Source of the DNA: a virus
Taxonomy: Duplodnaviria; Caudoviricetes
Reading direction: 5' to 3' (one strand)
Length of the DNA stretch: 64,000 nucleotides
Virus record (IMG/VR): IMGVR_UViG_3300037400_002156
Coordinates: 32,001-96,000 of that record
This document shows positions 51,536 to 58,669 of the stretch, one piece after another; within the stretch, counting starts at the first letter, position 1, and each line of letters starts with the position of its first letter. A program made the position numbers and the translations under genes. Under the pieces are notes generated by a model. That model ran no database searches. It was not told where the DNA came from and saw only the letters and a program-made list of their open reading frames with translations.

Positions 51536-52174
51536 TCACTCTCGGGTGTTCTCTTGCTCTTGAAGAGTGAAATTACCCTTGTCAGCTACATATATTCTAT
51601 CTCCATATTCAATGAACTTATTATCGTGTGTGATAAGAACTATAGATAATCCTGTTTCATCACATAGTGTTTTAATAAATTCCATGAACTGAGGAACATA
51701 CAATTTAGAAAGCTGACTTAATTGCTCATCAAGAAATAAATATTTCTGAACGTCTGTATTTATAATAAAGAAGATCTGAATAATAGTTGCAATTACAACT
51801 AATATTCCACCAGCAACATTTGAGTTCTTAATAGGAATAAGATTTCCATTATCATTTAACAGAAGTTCTACACATTTTGAATTTCTCTTATCTGTAACTT
51901 TAATCTGAACAGAATAGTCTCTATCATAGAATATCTGTTTTAGACCAAGTGTTAAAAGCTCTTCTAGCTTTCTTAGAAGTGAATCAGAGAATTTACTAAT
52001 AATATCATCAATAATTGGTTTGCATAATCGTAGAGTGTTTTTCTCACATTCTAGATCACTTATTTTAGATTCAATATCTTCAATAGAATGTTTCGTATTT
52101 TCAATTGAAGACTGAATGCCACGATATTTAATTAGAAGATTTGTTAGTTCACTCTCAAAATTTTGGTCAATCAT
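51536..52174 (-). CDS. SbcC/Rad50 (gp46-like) C-terminal half
   Basis: Coiled coil, then degenerate signature VAGG, Walker B LFLDE and H-loop LITHD. Confidence 0.85.
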   Translation of the reverse strand: MIDQNFESELTNLLIKYRGIQSSIENTKHSIEDIESKISDLECEKNTLRLCKPIIDDIISKFSDSLLRKLEELLTLGLKQIFYDRDYSVQIKVTDKRNSKCVELLLNDNGNLIPIKNSNVAGGILVVIATIIQIFFIINTDVQKYLFLDEQLSQLSKLYVPQFMEFIKTLCDETGLSIVLITHDNKFIEYGDRIYVADKGNFTLQEQENTRE

Positions 52175-52440
52175 ACTTAAGCACTTTTTATAATAGAAGT
52201 TCTTAATTGCTTACACAACCGGCTGCGCTGGGTTGTTCTGCAAAAGTTTATTGTTTATTGAAGTTCATAATAGAAGTTTAATGATGAAGATTGTAATCGG
52301 AATTTTTTAATAAAAAGTTTTTATTGAAGATCTCATAGAGATTTTTATAATAGAGAAGTTCTTATTTGAAGATTTATTAGATTGAAGATCATAAAATAGG
52401 AATCATTTAGATTCATTGAATACAGATTCAGATTAAGATC

Positions 52441-52509
52441 TTATTTAAATAATAAATATTATTTTATATTATATAATAAATAAATATATATATATTTTAT
52501 TATTTTATT
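52441..52509. other. A/T-only tract (candidate DNA-unwinding element)
   Basis: 69 consecutive A/T bases next to the tandem repeats. Confidence 0.7.
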
Positions 52510-52605
52510 GATTAGAATTTTGATTAGAATTTTGATTAGAATTTTGATTAGAATTTTGATTAGAATTTTGATTAGAATTTTGATTAGAATTTTGATTAGA
52601 ATTTT
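52510..52605 (+). repeat. Tandem array of 8 exact GATTAGAATTTT units (iteron-like)
   Basis: Counted directly; followed by a partial GATTTT. Confidence 0.98.
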
Positions 52606-52626
52606 GATTTTGAGTTTCAGCTTCTT

Positions 52627-52966
52627 TAGTTCATAAACGACTTATTTCAATCTTATGAACCTTCAATAATGAACTTCTTAGAAAGAAAAGAGTGGAAAAA
52701 GCGGCTCACTCTTTTGAGTTCATCATTGAAGATACCCTGCCGTCCGGGTTTATTGCTTGTATGTCTCATATCCTTCTGTTGTTGATGGACCATACGAAAT
52801 GTGCTTATTCAGTCGATGAACAGTTCAACATCTCTATTTAATAGAAGCTGCAGTCTTCAATTAAACTGGTAAGAAGGCTTAGGGCAGATATGGCAATCGC
52901 CAGTTGTACAAACGATATATAGCAGTATCTCCAACCAGGACATCGTGGTGCGTTATTGGCTACACA
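52627..52966 (-). ncRNA. Candidate structured RNA 1
   Basis: No long ORF; GC-richer than flanks; promoter motifs at 52974-52980 and 53001-53012; 15-bp stem CTTCAATGATGAACT/AGTTCATTATTGAAG plus further stems. Confidence 0.5.
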
Positions 52967-53131
52967 AGTAATTATATACATTTAAGTATTTAGCAATTTA
53001 ATTTAGATATAAAAATATTCCTAATAATGATTGTAATTCACTATTAGGAATATTCAATTCTAATAATTGATTCAGCTATTAGCAAACTGTCATACCGATC
53101 TAGAACAGTATGAAGCAACCTATTCGTTGCC

Positions 53132-53209
53132 ATTAAACGACTGGAATCGAACCAGTTTCTATATTAGAATATATTCTAATATATGCTTTACCTAATAAGC
53201 TACATTCAA
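53132..53209 (-). tRNA. tRNA-like element with a 24-bp palindrome in place of a normal anticodon arm
   Basis: TTGAATG/CGTTTAA acceptor, TAGCTT-ATTAGGTA-AAGC D arm, ACTGG-TTCGATT-CCAGT T arm; no readable anticodon and no CCA. Confidence 0.65.
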
Positions 53210-53314
53210 CATATACTTTGATATATGATTCTATATTCTAATCAAGAAGTCTATTATAATCTTGATTAGAATACAAGAAAAGCTATTCTAATAGAGATTA
53301 GAATAGCTTATTAA

Positions 53315-53388
53315 GTTAGGCGATAAGATTAGAGTTTACGACTTCAAAAACCATAATCTTATGTTCTACTAACTGAACTACACCTAAC
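53315..53388 (-). pseudogene. Degenerate tRNA-His-like gene (anticodon ATG)
   Basis: 8-bp acceptor GTTAGGTG/CGCCTAAC with G-1:C73, D arm GTTC/GAAC, loop TT-ATG-GT, eroded T loop CTCTAAT. Confidence 0.7.
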
Positions 53389-53394
53389 AAAGAA

Positions 53395-53667
53395 TTATCT
53401 TCATGAGATAACCTTTTAAATCTGATGCCTCACCTTAATTGGCAATCTGGATTATCACCCACTAGTGAATGACCTCTAGAAAGTCTCCTAGCTGCTAAAG
53501 GACTACCTTTTGAGTAGTAGGTGTTCCAAGTGCAGAATTACCTATATCACTATAGGTTACGATAATCCTAAGCGGCCGTGTACTTAAGTCCCATACGGGA
53601 TTATCGACTTCATCGAGTCTTCTGGTTGAGCATTATCTGAGGTACCAAGTAAGAGGCTTGAAGACTA
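53395..53667 (-). ncRNA. Candidate structured RNA 2 (about 270 nt)
   Basis: Stems AGTCTTC/GAAGACT, CGATAATCC/GGATTATCG, ACCTATA-GTGA-TATAGGT (GNRA loop), TCATTCAC/GTGGGTGA with G-U pairs; promoter motif at 53677-53688. Confidence 0.6.
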
Positions 53668-53700
53668 CTATTAATTATTTAGATATAATAAGTTAGTTTA

Positions 53701-53862
53701 TTACATAGGAATCTTTTCTTTCTTAAATCCATGAATTTTATATTCAGAGAACTCATCGTGTACATGATCTTCTTTAATTTGATTTTTTCGACGTTTATAA
53801 TCTTTTGACTTATTACGATTATTGTTCTCAGAAAAATTTTCCTTCCTAAAAGACTTTCCCAT
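53701..53862 (-). CDS. Small basic protein (53 aa)
   Basis: Below the ORF-track cutoff. MGKSFRKENFSENNNRNKSKDYKRRK...KEKIPM; GAGG RBS. Confidence 0.65.
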   Translation of the reverse strand: MGKSFRKENFSENNNRNKSKDYKRRKNQIKEDHVHDEFSEYKIHGFKKEKIPM

Positions 53863-53883: not shown

Positions 53884-54993
53884 TTATCTGTTATAAATAT
53901 TAATGATTGCCTGTGTATTGCTGTCAAATAGAATAATGCTATTCTGATTACTCAGCATTTCATCAGAAATATAGATATTGATATCTCTAGATCGCTTATC
54001 TTGAAATAGTTTTAACGCCTTTAGTAAATTATGTGATGATACTTCAGCCTCACTAGATGTGTCTTGTACGTCACCTACAGGCGTAGATTTTACGATCGAG
54101 CTATGCTTTGCTGCAAGAACATTTTTAATGCTCACATTAAGTTTACCATTTTTAATAGACATTCCTATAATATGCTTAGAAGCAGAATACTCTTCTGAAA
54201 ACATTGTTAACTTAAATAACTCATCTCCATTTATGCTTAGATAATTATTTAAGTTATTATTATATTCTAGATTATTCGAATCAATTCCAGCTGCAATTAC
54301 AGTAAATTTAAAATTTGGACCTACAAATAATAGTTTTTCTGCAATAGAAGATTCTATTTTACATATTCTAAGATCAAAATTATCCTTTAATAATAATCTT
54401 AGCATAGAAGCATCATCCCTATGCAGAGTCATTTCAACAAAATCATCTGACATAATAACACTAGACAATCTAGAAGTTACTACCATTTGAGTCTTGCTAA
54501 ATTGAATATACTTATCACGAGCATATGTATATTCCTGAGTATAACCTAAAACAGATGATATAGCATTTCTTAATTTTACAGAGTTTATAGTACCGAGCTC
54601 AGTCTGAATACCATCAACTTTGTATTTGTTAATGTCTACGTCAACTGATCTAAAAGGAATCCATCCATTACCTATTACATTGAACTCATACTGGTTGTAA
54701 CTTTTACGAATAGTAAATTTATCATTATCAGTACTCTTAATAAGAGCATATAAATCAGTAACTGGTGCTGCTATAACTTCATTTATCTGATCACTAGTAT
54801 CATACAATTCTACATTATACTCTATTATATTAGAGACGTCATCTACAGCTCTGCATACCAACTTACTATCTTCAACAGATAACGTAGCAATTCTAGATCC
54901 TTTTACTTTATCTCTAGTGTTCATTGATTTTACAAATAATATGAAATTAGTAAAATCATTCCCATTAAATTTCAAATAATATACTTTATCCAT
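53884..54993 (-). CDS. Putative sliding clamp (beta-clamp-like)
   Basis: 369 aa with three repeats of about 120 aa (FNGNDFTNFI / INSVKLRNAI / INGDELFKL); replication context. Confidence 0.6.
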   Translation of the reverse strand: MDKVYYLKFNGNDFTNFILFVKSMNTRDKVKGSRIATLSVEDSKLVCRAVDDVSNIIEYNVELYDTSDQINEVIAAPVTDLYALIKSTDNDKFTIRKSYNQYEFNVIGNGWIPFRSVDVDINKYKVDGIQTELGTINSVKLRNAISSVLGYTQEYTYARDKYIQFSKTQMVVTSRLSSVIMSDDFVEMTLHRDDASMLRLLLKDNFDLRICKIESSIAEKLLFVGPNFKFTVIAAGIDSNNLEYNNNLNNYLSINGDELFKLTMFSEEYSASKHIIGMSIKNGKLNVSIKNVLAAKHSSIVKSTPVGDVQDTSSEAEVSSHNLLKALKLFQDKRSRDINIYISDEMLSNQNSIILFDSNTQAIINIYNR

Positions 54994-57104: not shown

Positions 57105-57410
57105 TTAACTAATTAAAGAATCATAATCATCTTCAACTGGCTCTTCTACATAGTCATTTACATCATCAGATTGTGTTACAAGTTGATTAGAATCACTTCG
57201 TTTACATATTCCAAATAATTCGTAGTATTTCTTTTTAGCTAATCTCCACTCGTAATATGAGTTCATTATTTCTTTACAAGAATTTGTTTTAAATGATGAT
57301 CTATAACGCTCTTCACATTCTTCAATATGTTGTTTTAGATCATCTGCATTAATATCTTTAATATCGTCTTTTACAAGACATGTATTTTTACTTTTCTTAT
57401 TATGTTTCAT
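57105..57410 (-). CDS. Hypothetical protein
   Basis: 101 aa; ATGA-coupled to the sbcC N-half. Confidence 0.65.
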   Translation of the reverse strand: MKHNKKSKNTCLVKDDIKDINADDLKQHIEECEERYRSSFKTNSCKEIMNSYYEWRLAKKKYYELFGICKRSDSNQLVTQSDDVNDYVEEPVEDDYDSLIS

Positions 57411-58669
57411 TTATGTTCCTGAATAGCAAGATGATTTCCACAGAGAGGGCATACATCGAATTGTGATAACCGTTTATTGACTGACACACATTTCTTTTCA
57501 GTATTGTTAATATCTTTGTTTACGTTATCTAGCAATAATAGTTTATCATTTAAAATTAGCATATCATCAATATACGATATCTTACAGCTATTAATACTAT
57601 TAATAAGAGATACAATAAGTGAACATTTATTATAATTCATGTTATTATATTTTTGTTTTACAACATCATTAACTAGTGATTCTCTTAACTCAGTATTTTT
57701 AGGTATGCATTTTTCTATAATTTCTCTGTTATAAGAGACAGTATCATAATATTTCATTAGATGATTAAGCTTACTAAATAACTGTATTTCTTGAACTTTA
57801 TCTATAGCCTTCTCATAACTATTTATTAGATTATTATAAATTTCTATAGATAGAATAACTCCATCATAGAGTGATTTCGTAACTTCATACGATTTAATAT
57901 CATTTAGTGATAATATTAAATCTAAAACATGTTGAATACTATTTATAGTATTGCTAACATTGTAAATATATTTAGAAGACGCATCTAACGATATCATCAT
58001 ATCACGCAAATTACTTATTTTACTAAGTAACTCACTCTTATGCTTATAAGCCATATAATCACTGTATAAAGTTTCAACAGGCCGTAACAATTCAGCATGA
58101 GTCTCTAATGAAGCTAGACTACTTTCTAACTGTTCTTTTAGCTTTGTATTTGCTGCTAGGTCTGACGCATTACTTTTAATATCAGCTACGTAATAATCAT
58201 TTATTGACGAGATGTCAAACGTACTACGATAAGTTAAAACATTATACAGTGTTGATTGACTACCAAGAATAAGAAATGGTGAAGAAAATTGCAGATTAAA
58301 ATTAAAGTTAATTTCTTCACCATTAATATTTACATTGCCTATCTTTAAAACATTACTAACAGCTGGTAGTGCTGTTCTACCAACTTTAGTATATACCTCG
58401 TTGTTAACAGTATAATAAAATCTCTCTCCTTTTGCCTTTAAGCTTCTACTGTACTCTATAACATTGTTGTCAACAGTGATATTAACATTCATAGTGTTGC
58501 TACCAAATGCGATATCACTGTCTGAAAACTCATTCACTGCCATATTATATAGACAGCGCATTAGTGTTGATTTTCCTGATCCTGATGATCCTATTATAAG
58601 ATTAATCCCAGGATTAAACTCAACGTCACAGCTTTTTATAATACCTACATTACTTAACTGTACTCTCAT
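57407..58669 (-). CDS. SbcC/Rad50 (gp46-like) N-terminal half
   Basis: Walker A GSSGSGKST, Q-loop NLQFSSPFL, coiled coil ending in zinc hook VCPLCG. Confidence 0.88.
   Translation of the reverse strand: MRVQLSNVGIIKSCDVEFNPGINLIIGSSGSGKSTLMRCLYNMAVNEFSDSDIAFGSNTMNVNITVDNNVIEYSRSLKAKGERFYYTVNNEVYTKVGRTALPAVSNVLKIGNVNINGEEINFNFNLQFSSPFLILGSQSTLYNVLTYRSTFDISSINDYYVADIKSNASDLAANTKLKEQLESSLASLETHAELLRPVETLYSDYMAYKHKSELLSKISNLRDMMISLDASSKYIYNVSNTINSIQHVLDLILSLNDIKSYEVTKSLYDGVILSIEIYNNLINSYEKAIDKVQEIQLFSKLNHLMKYYDTVSYNREIIEKCIPKNTELRESLVNDVVKQKYNNMNYNKCSLIVSLINSINSCKISYIDDMLILNDKLLLLDNVNKDINNTEKKCVSVNKRLSQFDVCPLCGNHLAIQEHK

What the first reader, a model, noticed from the sequence alone, without database searches (positions are those of the whole stretch)
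52180..53690. Composite non-coding locus: repeats, AT tract, two structured RNAs and tRNA relics sharing one motif
Seen: about 1.5 kb with no long ORF in a gene-dense genome. Left to right: a GC hairpin (ACAACC..GGTTGT, about 52216-52237), dispersed GAAGWT repeats (52190-52445), 69 bp of pure A/T and 8 x GATTAGAATTTT. Then a promoter-led structured segment aimed at the repeats, hairpins built from the same ATTAGAAT word, two tRNA-like elements and a second structured segment. Known: iterons plus an AT tract are the usual origin layout, and T4 origins are primed by promoter-driven R-loops. Inference: an RNA-primed origin physically joined to an unknown ncRNA cluster, possibly read by one ATTAGAAT-binding protein. 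This is my best candidate for an undescribed system.
Basis: partly seen in the sequence, partly recalled or inferred. Interest (0 to 1): 0.85.

Follow-up and report, generated by a model that had tools for sequence, protein, structure and literature searches.

The report
New phage RNAs beside likely origin
This gene-free stretch of a large rumen phage holds several small RNA genes and one previously uncatalogued 340-base folded RNA that always points into a repeat-plus-AT-rich block resembling a replication start site, so the RNA may start DNA copying, though that is not shown.

Summary
(1) RNA C (52618-52965, minus strand) is a promoter-led RNA of about 340 nt with no Rfam match. In an 11-sequence alignment 37 of 65 pairs show compensatory changes, including a pseudoknot. 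Wherever the flank is assembled, it runs without a terminator into repeats and an AT tract. The genome holds a second, inverted RNA C + AT-tract module at 146-147.5 kb that leads no gene. An origin is likely (about 0.55); RNA priming is my best mechanism (about 0.4), with no skew or expression support. (2) Upstream is a swappable island of small RNAs: an orphan abiF-antitoxin-like hairpin (below Rfam cut-off, no AbiF gene; possible defence decoy), a conserved tRNA-like RNA without an anticodon (8-bp acceptor) fused to three hairpins (13 relatives), module B, and a broken tRNA-His. The shared ATTAGAAT-protein idea is not supported: the word occurs 7 times upstream here, 0-1 times in 15 relatives, and the repeat unit differs between phages. 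This scan has noted orphan abiF-like RNAs and origin-side large RNAs in other phages (unchecked). No sequencing reads could be examined.

The parts
53701..53862 (-). Conserved basic 53-aa ORF directly upstream of the RNA island (border; no family)
   Evidence: Seen at the same place in the relatives examined; no PHROG or Pfam hit
53679..53687 (-). Promoter-like TATATCWA motif in front of module A
   Evidence: Motif is intergenic 22 times against 6.3 expected, mostly upstream of same-strand genes; not a mapped promoter
53616..53665 (-). Module A1: abiF-motif-like bulged hairpin, orphan antitoxin mimic candidate
   Evidence: RF03085 25.1 bits, below cut-off 37; the only match in the genome, E 0.003; likewise in G001 and G005; covarying stems; no Abi_2 gene
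53536..53612 (-). Module A2: stem with internal loop plus a GNRA-tetraloop hairpin, always following A1
   Evidence: Nine-sequence alignment, compensatory changes in the last hairpin; second A copy in the tRNA cluster, C1:135851-135979
53417..53530 (-). Module B: about 115-nt conserved element, optional among relatives
   Evidence: 95% column identity in 5 sequences, no compensatory change, so the fold is unproven; absent from L007/L032, L030, L036
53315..53388 (-). T2: degenerate tRNA-His (anticodon AUG, G-1:C73, damaged T loop), seen only in this genome
   Evidence: Rfam tRNA 40.7 bits; 81% over 42 nt to a phage tRNA-His; features read from the sequence
53229..53309 (-). Two AT-rich hairpins built from the ATTAGAAT word; lineage-specific
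   Evidence: z -6.9; the word is essentially absent from relatives' islands
53217..53225 (-). Promoter-like TATATCWA motif placing the start at the first base of T1
   Evidence: A like motif lies a few bases before the acceptor stem in all 14 loci; the first base is a purine in 13
53132..53210 (-). T1: conserved tRNA-like domain with 8-bp acceptor, D and T arms, and a freely varying hairpin in place of the anticodon arm
   Evidence: Rfam tRNA 42.4 bits; the -1:73 pair is kept in 14 of 14 loci as A:U, G:C, U:A or G:U; length 65-89 nt
53057..53131 (-). D: three-hairpin domain directly fused to T1
   Evidence: Follows T1 with 0-1 nt between in 14 loci; 6 of 23 pairs covary; no HDV-type fold found
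53013..53055 (-). Intrinsic-terminator-like hairpin closing the T1-D unit
   Evidence: 18-bp stem plus T run; a similar hairpin follows D in relatives
52974..53011 (-). Promoter-like motifs TATATCWA (53003-53011) and TGTATAT (52974-52980) before RNA C
   Evidence: Both enriched in intergenic DNA; TGTATAT also precedes the second copy (C1:145917) and RNA C in L022
52618..52965 (-). RNA C: about 340-nt structured RNA with 5' hairpin, multi-stem core, 3' H-type pseudoknot and a final 34-nt bulged hairpin with A-rich tail
   Evidence: 37 of 65 pairs with changes on both sides, 94% of cells paired against 36-43% for slid controls; pseudoknot stem specific to each sequence; no Rfam match
52508..52609 (.). 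12-bp tandem array, 8.5 perfect copies; one instance of a variable repeat block
   Evidence: TRF; unit and copy number vary among relatives
52441..52509 (.). 69-bp pure A/T tract, candidate DNA unwinding element
   Evidence: Longest in the genome; a 50-bp window with 0-6 G+C follows the repeat block in all 14 loci measured
52386..52441 (.). Conserved segment right of the AT tract in RNA direction, candidate protein-binding site
   Evidence: 81% over 57 nt to L011; recognisable in L010, L012, L016, L037
52196..52389 (.). Eight dispersed GAAGWT repeats, candidate initiator sites
   Evidence: Densest cluster in the genome; mirrored beyond the AT tract of the second copy

Best explanation
The interval holds two independent units. 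Unit 1 (52196-53011) is a replication-origin module. A phage promoter makes RNA C, which folds and is transcribed without an intrinsic terminator into a short repeat block next to an easily melted AT tract. There the transcript's 3' end stays hybridised to the template and primes the phage's family A polymerase, as in T4 R-loop origins or ColE1; the folded body probably controls or stabilises that hybrid or recruits proteins. The genome has two such modules in opposite orientation, each pointing the way local genes are transcribed. Unit 2 (53013-53687) is an island of small, separately promoted RNAs that relatives gain and lose: an AbiF-antitoxin mimic (about 0.5), a tRNA-mimic RNA T1-D whose anticodon-free cloverleaf most likely caps and stabilises, or is cut off from, the three-hairpin domain, module B, and a dying tRNA-His. 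Shown: the conservation, the folds of C, A and T1-D, the layout, the duplication. Inferred: transcription, origin activity, priming, all functions.
For: RNA C covariation and pseudoknot. Fixed order RNA -> repeats -> AT tract in the type I loci with assembled flank and also behind unrelated large segments in L002, L003, L015, L038. The second copy at C1:145942-146262 has its own TGTATAT motif, the second-longest AT tract and the mirrored GAAGWT cluster, and is followed by a convergent gene, so it leads nothing. In six loci the block just after the RNA recurs 250-970 bp later directly before the AT tract; the two copies are 92-98% identical within a genome but 44-80% between genomes, while sequence between them is still shared between phages, which fits a need for the RNA tail to match the DNA beside the AT tract. 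The locus sits among replication genes: beta-clamp-like protein, primase, SbcCD, RecA-like; the genome has Pol A and a separate 5'-3' exonuclease. T4 oriF/oriG are promoter plus unwinding element with a persistent hybrid (PMC4412123); ColE1 uses a folded primer RNA (PMC5043065).
Against: Raw GC skew follows the coding strand with no inflection. Fourfold-site G/C skew shifts near the locus but with gene-permutation p 0.057, polarity opposite to the usual bacterial rule, and in G002 and G005 the shift lies 7-15 kb away, so gene content explains it as well. The RNA strand over the repeats is G-poor (177 nt without G here), whereas ColE1 and mitochondrial primers need a G stretch. No RNase H family gene and no initiator identified. 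The pseudoknot is only 4 bp in the window's own copy and absent in L037. Within-genome repeat identity could also come from recent duplication or gene conversion with no function.
Confidence: 0.4

Rival explanations
1. RNA C is a free-acting large non-coding RNA (scaffold, decoy or ribozyme, in the manner of GOLLD/ROOL-type phage RNAs). The G-poor repeats after it serve as an unstructured Rho-loading or trimming tail; the AT block is either a protein-initiated origin that is merely adjacent, or only a spacer.
For: Elaborate covarying fold with pseudoknot, more than T4-type priming needs; the neighbourhood is a hot spot for RNA genes, including tmRNA in L016 and tRNAs in L036 and L039; C-rich, G-poor tails are what Rho loads on (established knowledge; composition); a homing-endonuclease-like gene has invaded RNA C in L036 and a replacement first hairpin follows it, as happens with needed genes.
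Against: Unlike module A, RNA C was never found away from a repeat/AT block; unrelated large segments take exactly its place in other relatives; the second copy moved together with the whole block.
Confidence: 0.35
2. The repeat/AT block is an origin opened by a protein initiator binding the repeats or GAAGWT boxes; transcription of RNA C only helps melting (transcriptional activation), or the block is a packaging or recombination site.
For: Repeats plus AT tract is the classic iteron layout; conserved segment and short boxes beyond the AT tract; contig ends of several relatives fall here (L014, L015, L030, L038).
Against: Repeat unit, period (3, 12 or none) and copy number vary far more than the flanking proteins (67-77% identical SbcC-half), which is hard for a sequence-specific initiator; the contig breaks are explained by low complexity; the genome record has no end repeats.
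Confidence: 0.18
3. One reading: one ATTAGAAT-binding protein reads the array, the hairpins and the tRNA-like element and couples the RNA cluster to the origin.
For: The word is over-represented in this genome's island (7 against 0.13) and forms the array unit.
Against: 0-1 copies in 15 relatives' islands, including L001 and L010 whose arrays contain the word; L012's array has a different unit; T1's arm that carries the word is the part that varies freely.
Confidence: 0.07

Closest known systems
Phage T4 oriF/oriG R-loop origins (PMC4412123)
   Same: Promoter followed by an AT-rich unwinding element in a large phage; several copies; sits among replication and recombination genes.
   Different: Here a conserved 340-nt folded RNA with a pseudoknot and a variable repeat block lie between promoter and AT tract; hybrid formation untested.
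ColE1 RNA II pre-primer (PMC5043065)
   Same: Long, folded, promoter-led non-coding RNA without terminator running into the presumed start; a family A polymerase is available.
   Different: No sequence likeness tested or found in Rfam; no G stretch in the RNA tail; AT tract present, which ColE1 does not need; no antisense RNA I found; no RNase H family gene in the phage.
abiF RNA motif / RCd22 / AbiFr (Rfam RF03085; bioRxiv 10.1101/2025.04.15.648962; PMC12737573)
   Same: A1 has the same outer stem, bulged A, AGC/GCU stem and 3' single-stranded bulge, and is the model's only match in three genomes.
   Different: 25-26 bits against cut-off 37; loop replaced by a longer inner hairpin; single motif, no downstream abiF gene; followed by A2.
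Pseudo-ToxI of phage PhiTE (PMC3475682)
   Same: Phage-borne copy of an RNA antitoxin without the toxin.
   Different: Different toxin family; no repeat expansion; activity untested here.
Theta ribozymes (PMC10879173)
   Same: Gut-phage RNA element starting with G right at the 3' end of a tRNA-like element.
   Different: D folds as three consecutive hairpins, not the HDV double pseudoknot; its loops are not conserved; not in the paper's held supplementary text.
GOLLD / ROOL large phage RNAs (PMC12286853, abstract only)
   Same: Large structured RNAs of phages; ROOL is rumen-derived.
   Different: No Rfam match even at E 10; smaller; tied to a repeat/AT block.

Membership tests
T4-type R-loop origin | Promoter directed at an unwinding element | tested here: met
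   Enriched promoter-like motifs before RNA C; AT tract downstream in all loci measured. Motifs only, not mapped starts.
T4-type R-loop origin | Persistent RNA-DNA hybrid priming leading-strand synthesis | not testable with these tools
T4-type R-loop origin | Strand-composition or coverage signature at the site | tested here: inconclusive
   No raw skew inflection; fourfold-site shift p 0.057, wrong polarity, not co-located in relatives
ColE1 RNA II primer | Folded non-coding RNA upstream of the start, no terminator | tested here: met
   no terminator-like site on the minus strand after RNA C
ColE1 RNA II primer | G-rich stretch in the RNA pairing with a C-rich template | tested here: not met
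   RNA strand over repeats is G-poor
ColE1 RNA II primer | Antisense RNA I control and RNase H processing | tested here: inconclusive
   No PF00075 in the phage; a host enzyme or the phage 5'-3' exonuclease could serve; antisense RNA not looked for beyond a consensus scan
Iteron origin | Conserved repeat unit bound by a cognate initiator | tested here: not met
   Unit and copy number differ or are absent among close relatives; no initiator identified
abiF RNA (RF03085) | Score above the gathering cut-off | tested here: not met
   25.1-25.9 bits against 37
abiF RNA (RF03085) | Stem, bulged A, AGC stem and 3' bulge topology | tested here: met
abiF RNA (RF03085) | Adjacent Abi_2/AbiF gene | tested here: not met
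   No PF07751 in this genome or five partial relatives
abiF RNA (RF03085) | Binds and neutralises an AbiF RNase | not testable with these tools
   Bench assay needed
Theta / HDV-like ribozyme (element D) | G at the tRNA 3' end | tested here: met
   G follows position 73 directly in 10 of 14 loci
Theta / HDV-like ribozyme (element D) | Nested double pseudoknot with catalytic C | tested here: not met
   Own descriptor found none in 8 sequences (no positive control was run); consensus is three hairpins; no Rfam ribozyme hit
Canonical tRNA (T1) | 7-nt anticodon loop on a 5-bp stem | tested here: not met
   Arm length and sequence vary freely; ARAGORN gives no anticodon
Canonical tRNA (T1) | Acceptor, D and T arms | tested here: met
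   Rfam tRNA above cut-off here and in L003, L007, L010
GOLLD / ROOL / OLE / RNase P / introns (RNA C) | Rfam model match | tested here: not met
   None at E up to 10 for the window or L012
Group II intron domain V (last hairpin of RNA C) | AGC/CGC triad and AC bulge in a 34-nt hairpin | tested here: not met
   Same size and bulge position, but no conserved triad, bulge is GU; no reverse transcriptase PF00078 in the genome

The most novel reading that the evidence does not exclude
A phage family starts DNA replication with an exchangeable, pseudoknotted primer RNA whose 3' tail is matched to a repeat beside the AT tract, so that RNA tail and origin repeat evolve together and no protein initiator is needed; at least two unrelated RNA folds do the job in different relatives.
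Probability: 0.22. Interest if true: 0.85.

Novelty: new variant of a known kind. Interest (0 to 1): 0.66.

Why it matters
How most large uncultured phages start replication is unknown. A covariation-backed, uncatalogued RNA fixed in front of an origin-like block, duplicated in inverted orientation and swapped for unrelated RNAs in relatives, gives a specific, testable candidate. Even if priming is wrong, the locus yields at least two RNA families missing from Rfam 15 (RNA C; the anticodon-free tRNA-mimic T1-D) and a probable RNA decoy against AbiF defence.

Tried and rejected
GenBank phage collection: no relative by DNA or by the clamp-like protein, so host and taxonomy remain unknown. A degenerate RNA C core pattern in 185,579 prokaryote genomes gave two hits, short core matches only, judged chance. 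D as theta/HDV ribozyme: rejected on fold; pistol, hatchet, twister and hammerhead were not hit by Rfam. Telomerase- or retron-like synthesis of the repeats: no PF00078 reverse transcriptase. Repeats as coding sequence: the frame through the array has no start codon and the unit is not conserved. RNA C as riboswitch or leader of sbcC: 440-1300 bp from the next gene, and the second copy leads no gene. Skew as origin evidence: inconclusive. Type II RNA as homologue of RNA C: neither HMM nor covariance model links them. Fremin et al. candidate viral RNAs (PMC10690425) could not be checked, no supplements held; the AbiFr structure paper is not held, so bulge nucleotides were not compared directly. 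Literature searches found nothing on this locus.

Full report
Setting. The window is C1:32001-96000 of a 204-kb, 32% GC virus record, about 95% complete. The finding is the gap between a beta-clamp-like gene (53884-54993; features and structure match DNA pol III beta, TM 0.82) with a 53-aa ORF, and the C-terminal half of a split SbcC followed by primase. About 100 homologues of the clamp-like protein exist in metagenomes and none in the GenBank phage collection. From them I obtained 16 or so distinct loci covering the interval. Sample names suggest rumen metagenomes (my reading of the identifiers); the host is unknown.

Observation. Every feature listed is present and, apart from the GC hairpin, exceeds chance: see the observation check. 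The gap is the longest in the genome, and the third longest is a second copy of part of it.

RNA C. The promoter-led segment (52618-52965, minus) has homologues at the same place in L001, L010, L011, L012/L021, L014, L016, L022, L030, L036 and L037, and a paralogue at C1:145942-146262 on the plus strand, 64% identical. In an 11-sequence alignment 65 pairs are predicted, 37 with changes on both sides; 94% of cells pair against 36-43% when partners are slid. The structure was derived from these sequences and they are related, so the shuffle counts are not probabilities, but the compensations are spread over all 11 helices. The 3' half is an H-type pseudoknot: a 6-9 bp stem pairs an upstream strand with the loop of a long hairpin, in several different sequence versions, each significant against shuffles (p 0.003-0.03); in the window's own copy it is only 4 G-C pairs (p 0.57) and in L037 it is replaced by a longer hairpin. 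The RNA ends in a 34-nt hairpin with a 2-nt 3' bulge and an A-rich tail, with no terminator. Rfam has no match at E 10. In L036 a NUMOD3-type gene interrupts it after the first hairpin, and a different first hairpin follows the gene. L002, L003, L007/L032 and L015 carry an unrelated large segment (type II) in the same position, and L038 a third; the type II fold rests on too few sequences to be called proven.

The block after RNA C. In all 14 loci measured a repeat or low-complexity block is followed by a 50-bp window with at most 6 G+C. The period is 12 in the window, L001, L010, L012 and L002, 3 in L038, and weak or absent in L011, L016 and L037; the unit differs between phages. In six loci (second copy, L001, L022, L036, L002, L015) a 44-60 bp block starting 5-25 nt after the RNA recurs 250-970 bp later, and the second copy, not the first, abuts the AT tract. 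The two copies are 92-98% identical within a genome and 44-80% between genomes, although sequence between them is still alignable between phages. The window shows the short form, one array directly on the AT tract. Beyond the tract lie a conserved segment and the GAAGWT cluster, which is mirrored at the second copy. The second copy faces a convergent gene, so RNA C is not a leader.

Mechanism of unit 1. The arrangement is that of promoter-plus-unwinding-element origins (T4 oriF/oriG, PMC4412123) with a folded RNA as in ColE1 (PMC5043065); the phage has Pol A and a 5'-3' exonuclease but no Pol III alpha or RNase H family gene. I put the block being an origin at about 0.55 and RNA C priming it at about 0.4. 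Against: no expression or coverage data; no raw skew change; the fourfold-site skew shift is marginal, of the wrong sign and displaced in relatives; the RNA tail is G-poor, unlike ColE1 and mitochondrial primers. A free-acting RNA with a Rho-type tail is the main rival.

Unit 2, the RNA island. Modules A, B, E (E absent here), T1-D, tRNAs and tmRNA appear in different combinations between the 53-aa ORF and RNA C, behind a TATATCWA motif enriched 3.5-fold in intergenic DNA. A1 matches the abiF RNA model at 25-26 bits, below cut-off but as the only match in each of three genomes, with covarying stems and no AbiF gene. The abiF motif RNA neutralises AbiF in trans (10.1101/2025.04.15.648962) through a single-stranded bulge (PMC12737573), and phage antitoxin mimicry has a precedent (PMC3475682); decoy probability about 0.5. 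Module A also lies in the main tRNA cluster here and at a distant site in G001, so it does not depend on the origin block. T1 is not a relic: 14 loci keep an 8-bp acceptor with a covarying -1:73 pair, D and T arms, and a promoter motif that would start the RNA at the first acceptor base, while the anticodon arm changes freely; D follows at once and a terminator closes the unit. The position recalls theta ribozymes (PMC10879173) but D lacks the HDV fold (without positive control). Most likely the cloverleaf is a stabilising cap or RNase Z mark for D (about 0.4); a decoy for tRNA-binding defence proteins (0.3) and a new self-cleaving fold (0.15) remain open. T2 is a decayed tRNA-His seen only here. 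B is highly conserved but shows no covariation.

The ATTAGAAT word. It is truly enriched in this genome's island but occurs 0-1 times in 15 relatives' islands, and it sits in the arm of T1 that is free to vary. It is best read as a local accident of this lineage.

Verdict. A real and richer locus than first described, but not one system. RNA C and T1-D are new RNA families by Rfam 15; the working model is a new variant of RNA-primed origin plus an island of accessory RNAs. Earlier notes of this scan on other genomes describe similar themes; they are unchecked leads, and one later check rated a comparable primer reading low, which tempers my odds.

Noticed in passing
G000 C1:145880-147620 (L008:17880-19620), + strand: Second RNA C module in long form: promoter motif, RNA C, 60-bp repeat, GC-richer segment shared with L022, repeat again, 55-bp AT tract, mirrored GAAGWT cluster, terminator of a convergent gene.
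   Followed up: yes
G000 C1:135851-135979; G001 C1:145348-145481: Further copies of module A away from the finding; in G000 between tRNA-Leu(CAG) and tRNA-Leu(CAA).
   Followed up: partly
L002:10497-10856, L003:5877-6251, L015:7662-8224; L038:9140-9655: Two other large non-coding segments, unrelated to RNA C, occupy its position before the repeats; type II also ends in a bulged hairpin plus A-rich tail; no Rfam match for L015.
   Followed up: partly
L010:8001-8086, L011:7318-7404, L003:5430-5515, L036:8472-8551: Module E, a conserved 85-nt element followed by a terminator, in many relatives' islands; absent from the window. Fold and function not examined.
   Followed up: no
L010:11920-12000, L014:9140-9235, L016:9580-9660, L022:8415-8510, L037:8390-8480, L015:7490-7600: Another promoter-led short element with a conserved AAGCAGAAC loop and terminator, absent from the window's interval; candidate small RNA.
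   Followed up: no
L036:9443-10720: NUMOD3 homing-endonuclease-like gene inside RNA C, with the first hairpin left upstream and a different one supplied downstream.
   Followed up: partly
L016:7630-8000; G000 C1:133032-133398: tmRNA with the same tag peptide sits inside this island in L016 but in the main tRNA cluster in the window's genome.
   Followed up: no
L010:10290-11854: IscB-like gene (RRXRR, HNH) with an upstream non-coding stretch inserted in the same interval.
   Followed up: no
window 53701-53862 (-): Basic 53-aa protein conserved directly before the island in the relatives examined, no family; candidate nucleic-acid binder.
   Followed up: partly
window 57407-58669 and 51536-52174 (-): SbcC/Rad50 is split into two genes that flank SbcD, the clamp-like gene and this whole locus; same split in relatives.
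   Followed up: partly
G000 C1:132900-136710: tRNA cluster with unusual anticodons (Tyr AUA, Leu AAG, Ile UAU) and several further degenerate tRNA-like sequences.
   Followed up: no
G000 about 79-86 kb: G/C skew at fourfold sites of minus-strand genes changes sign near here; similar shifts in relatives lie 0-15 kb towards the structural genes, probably a gene-class effect.
   Followed up: yes
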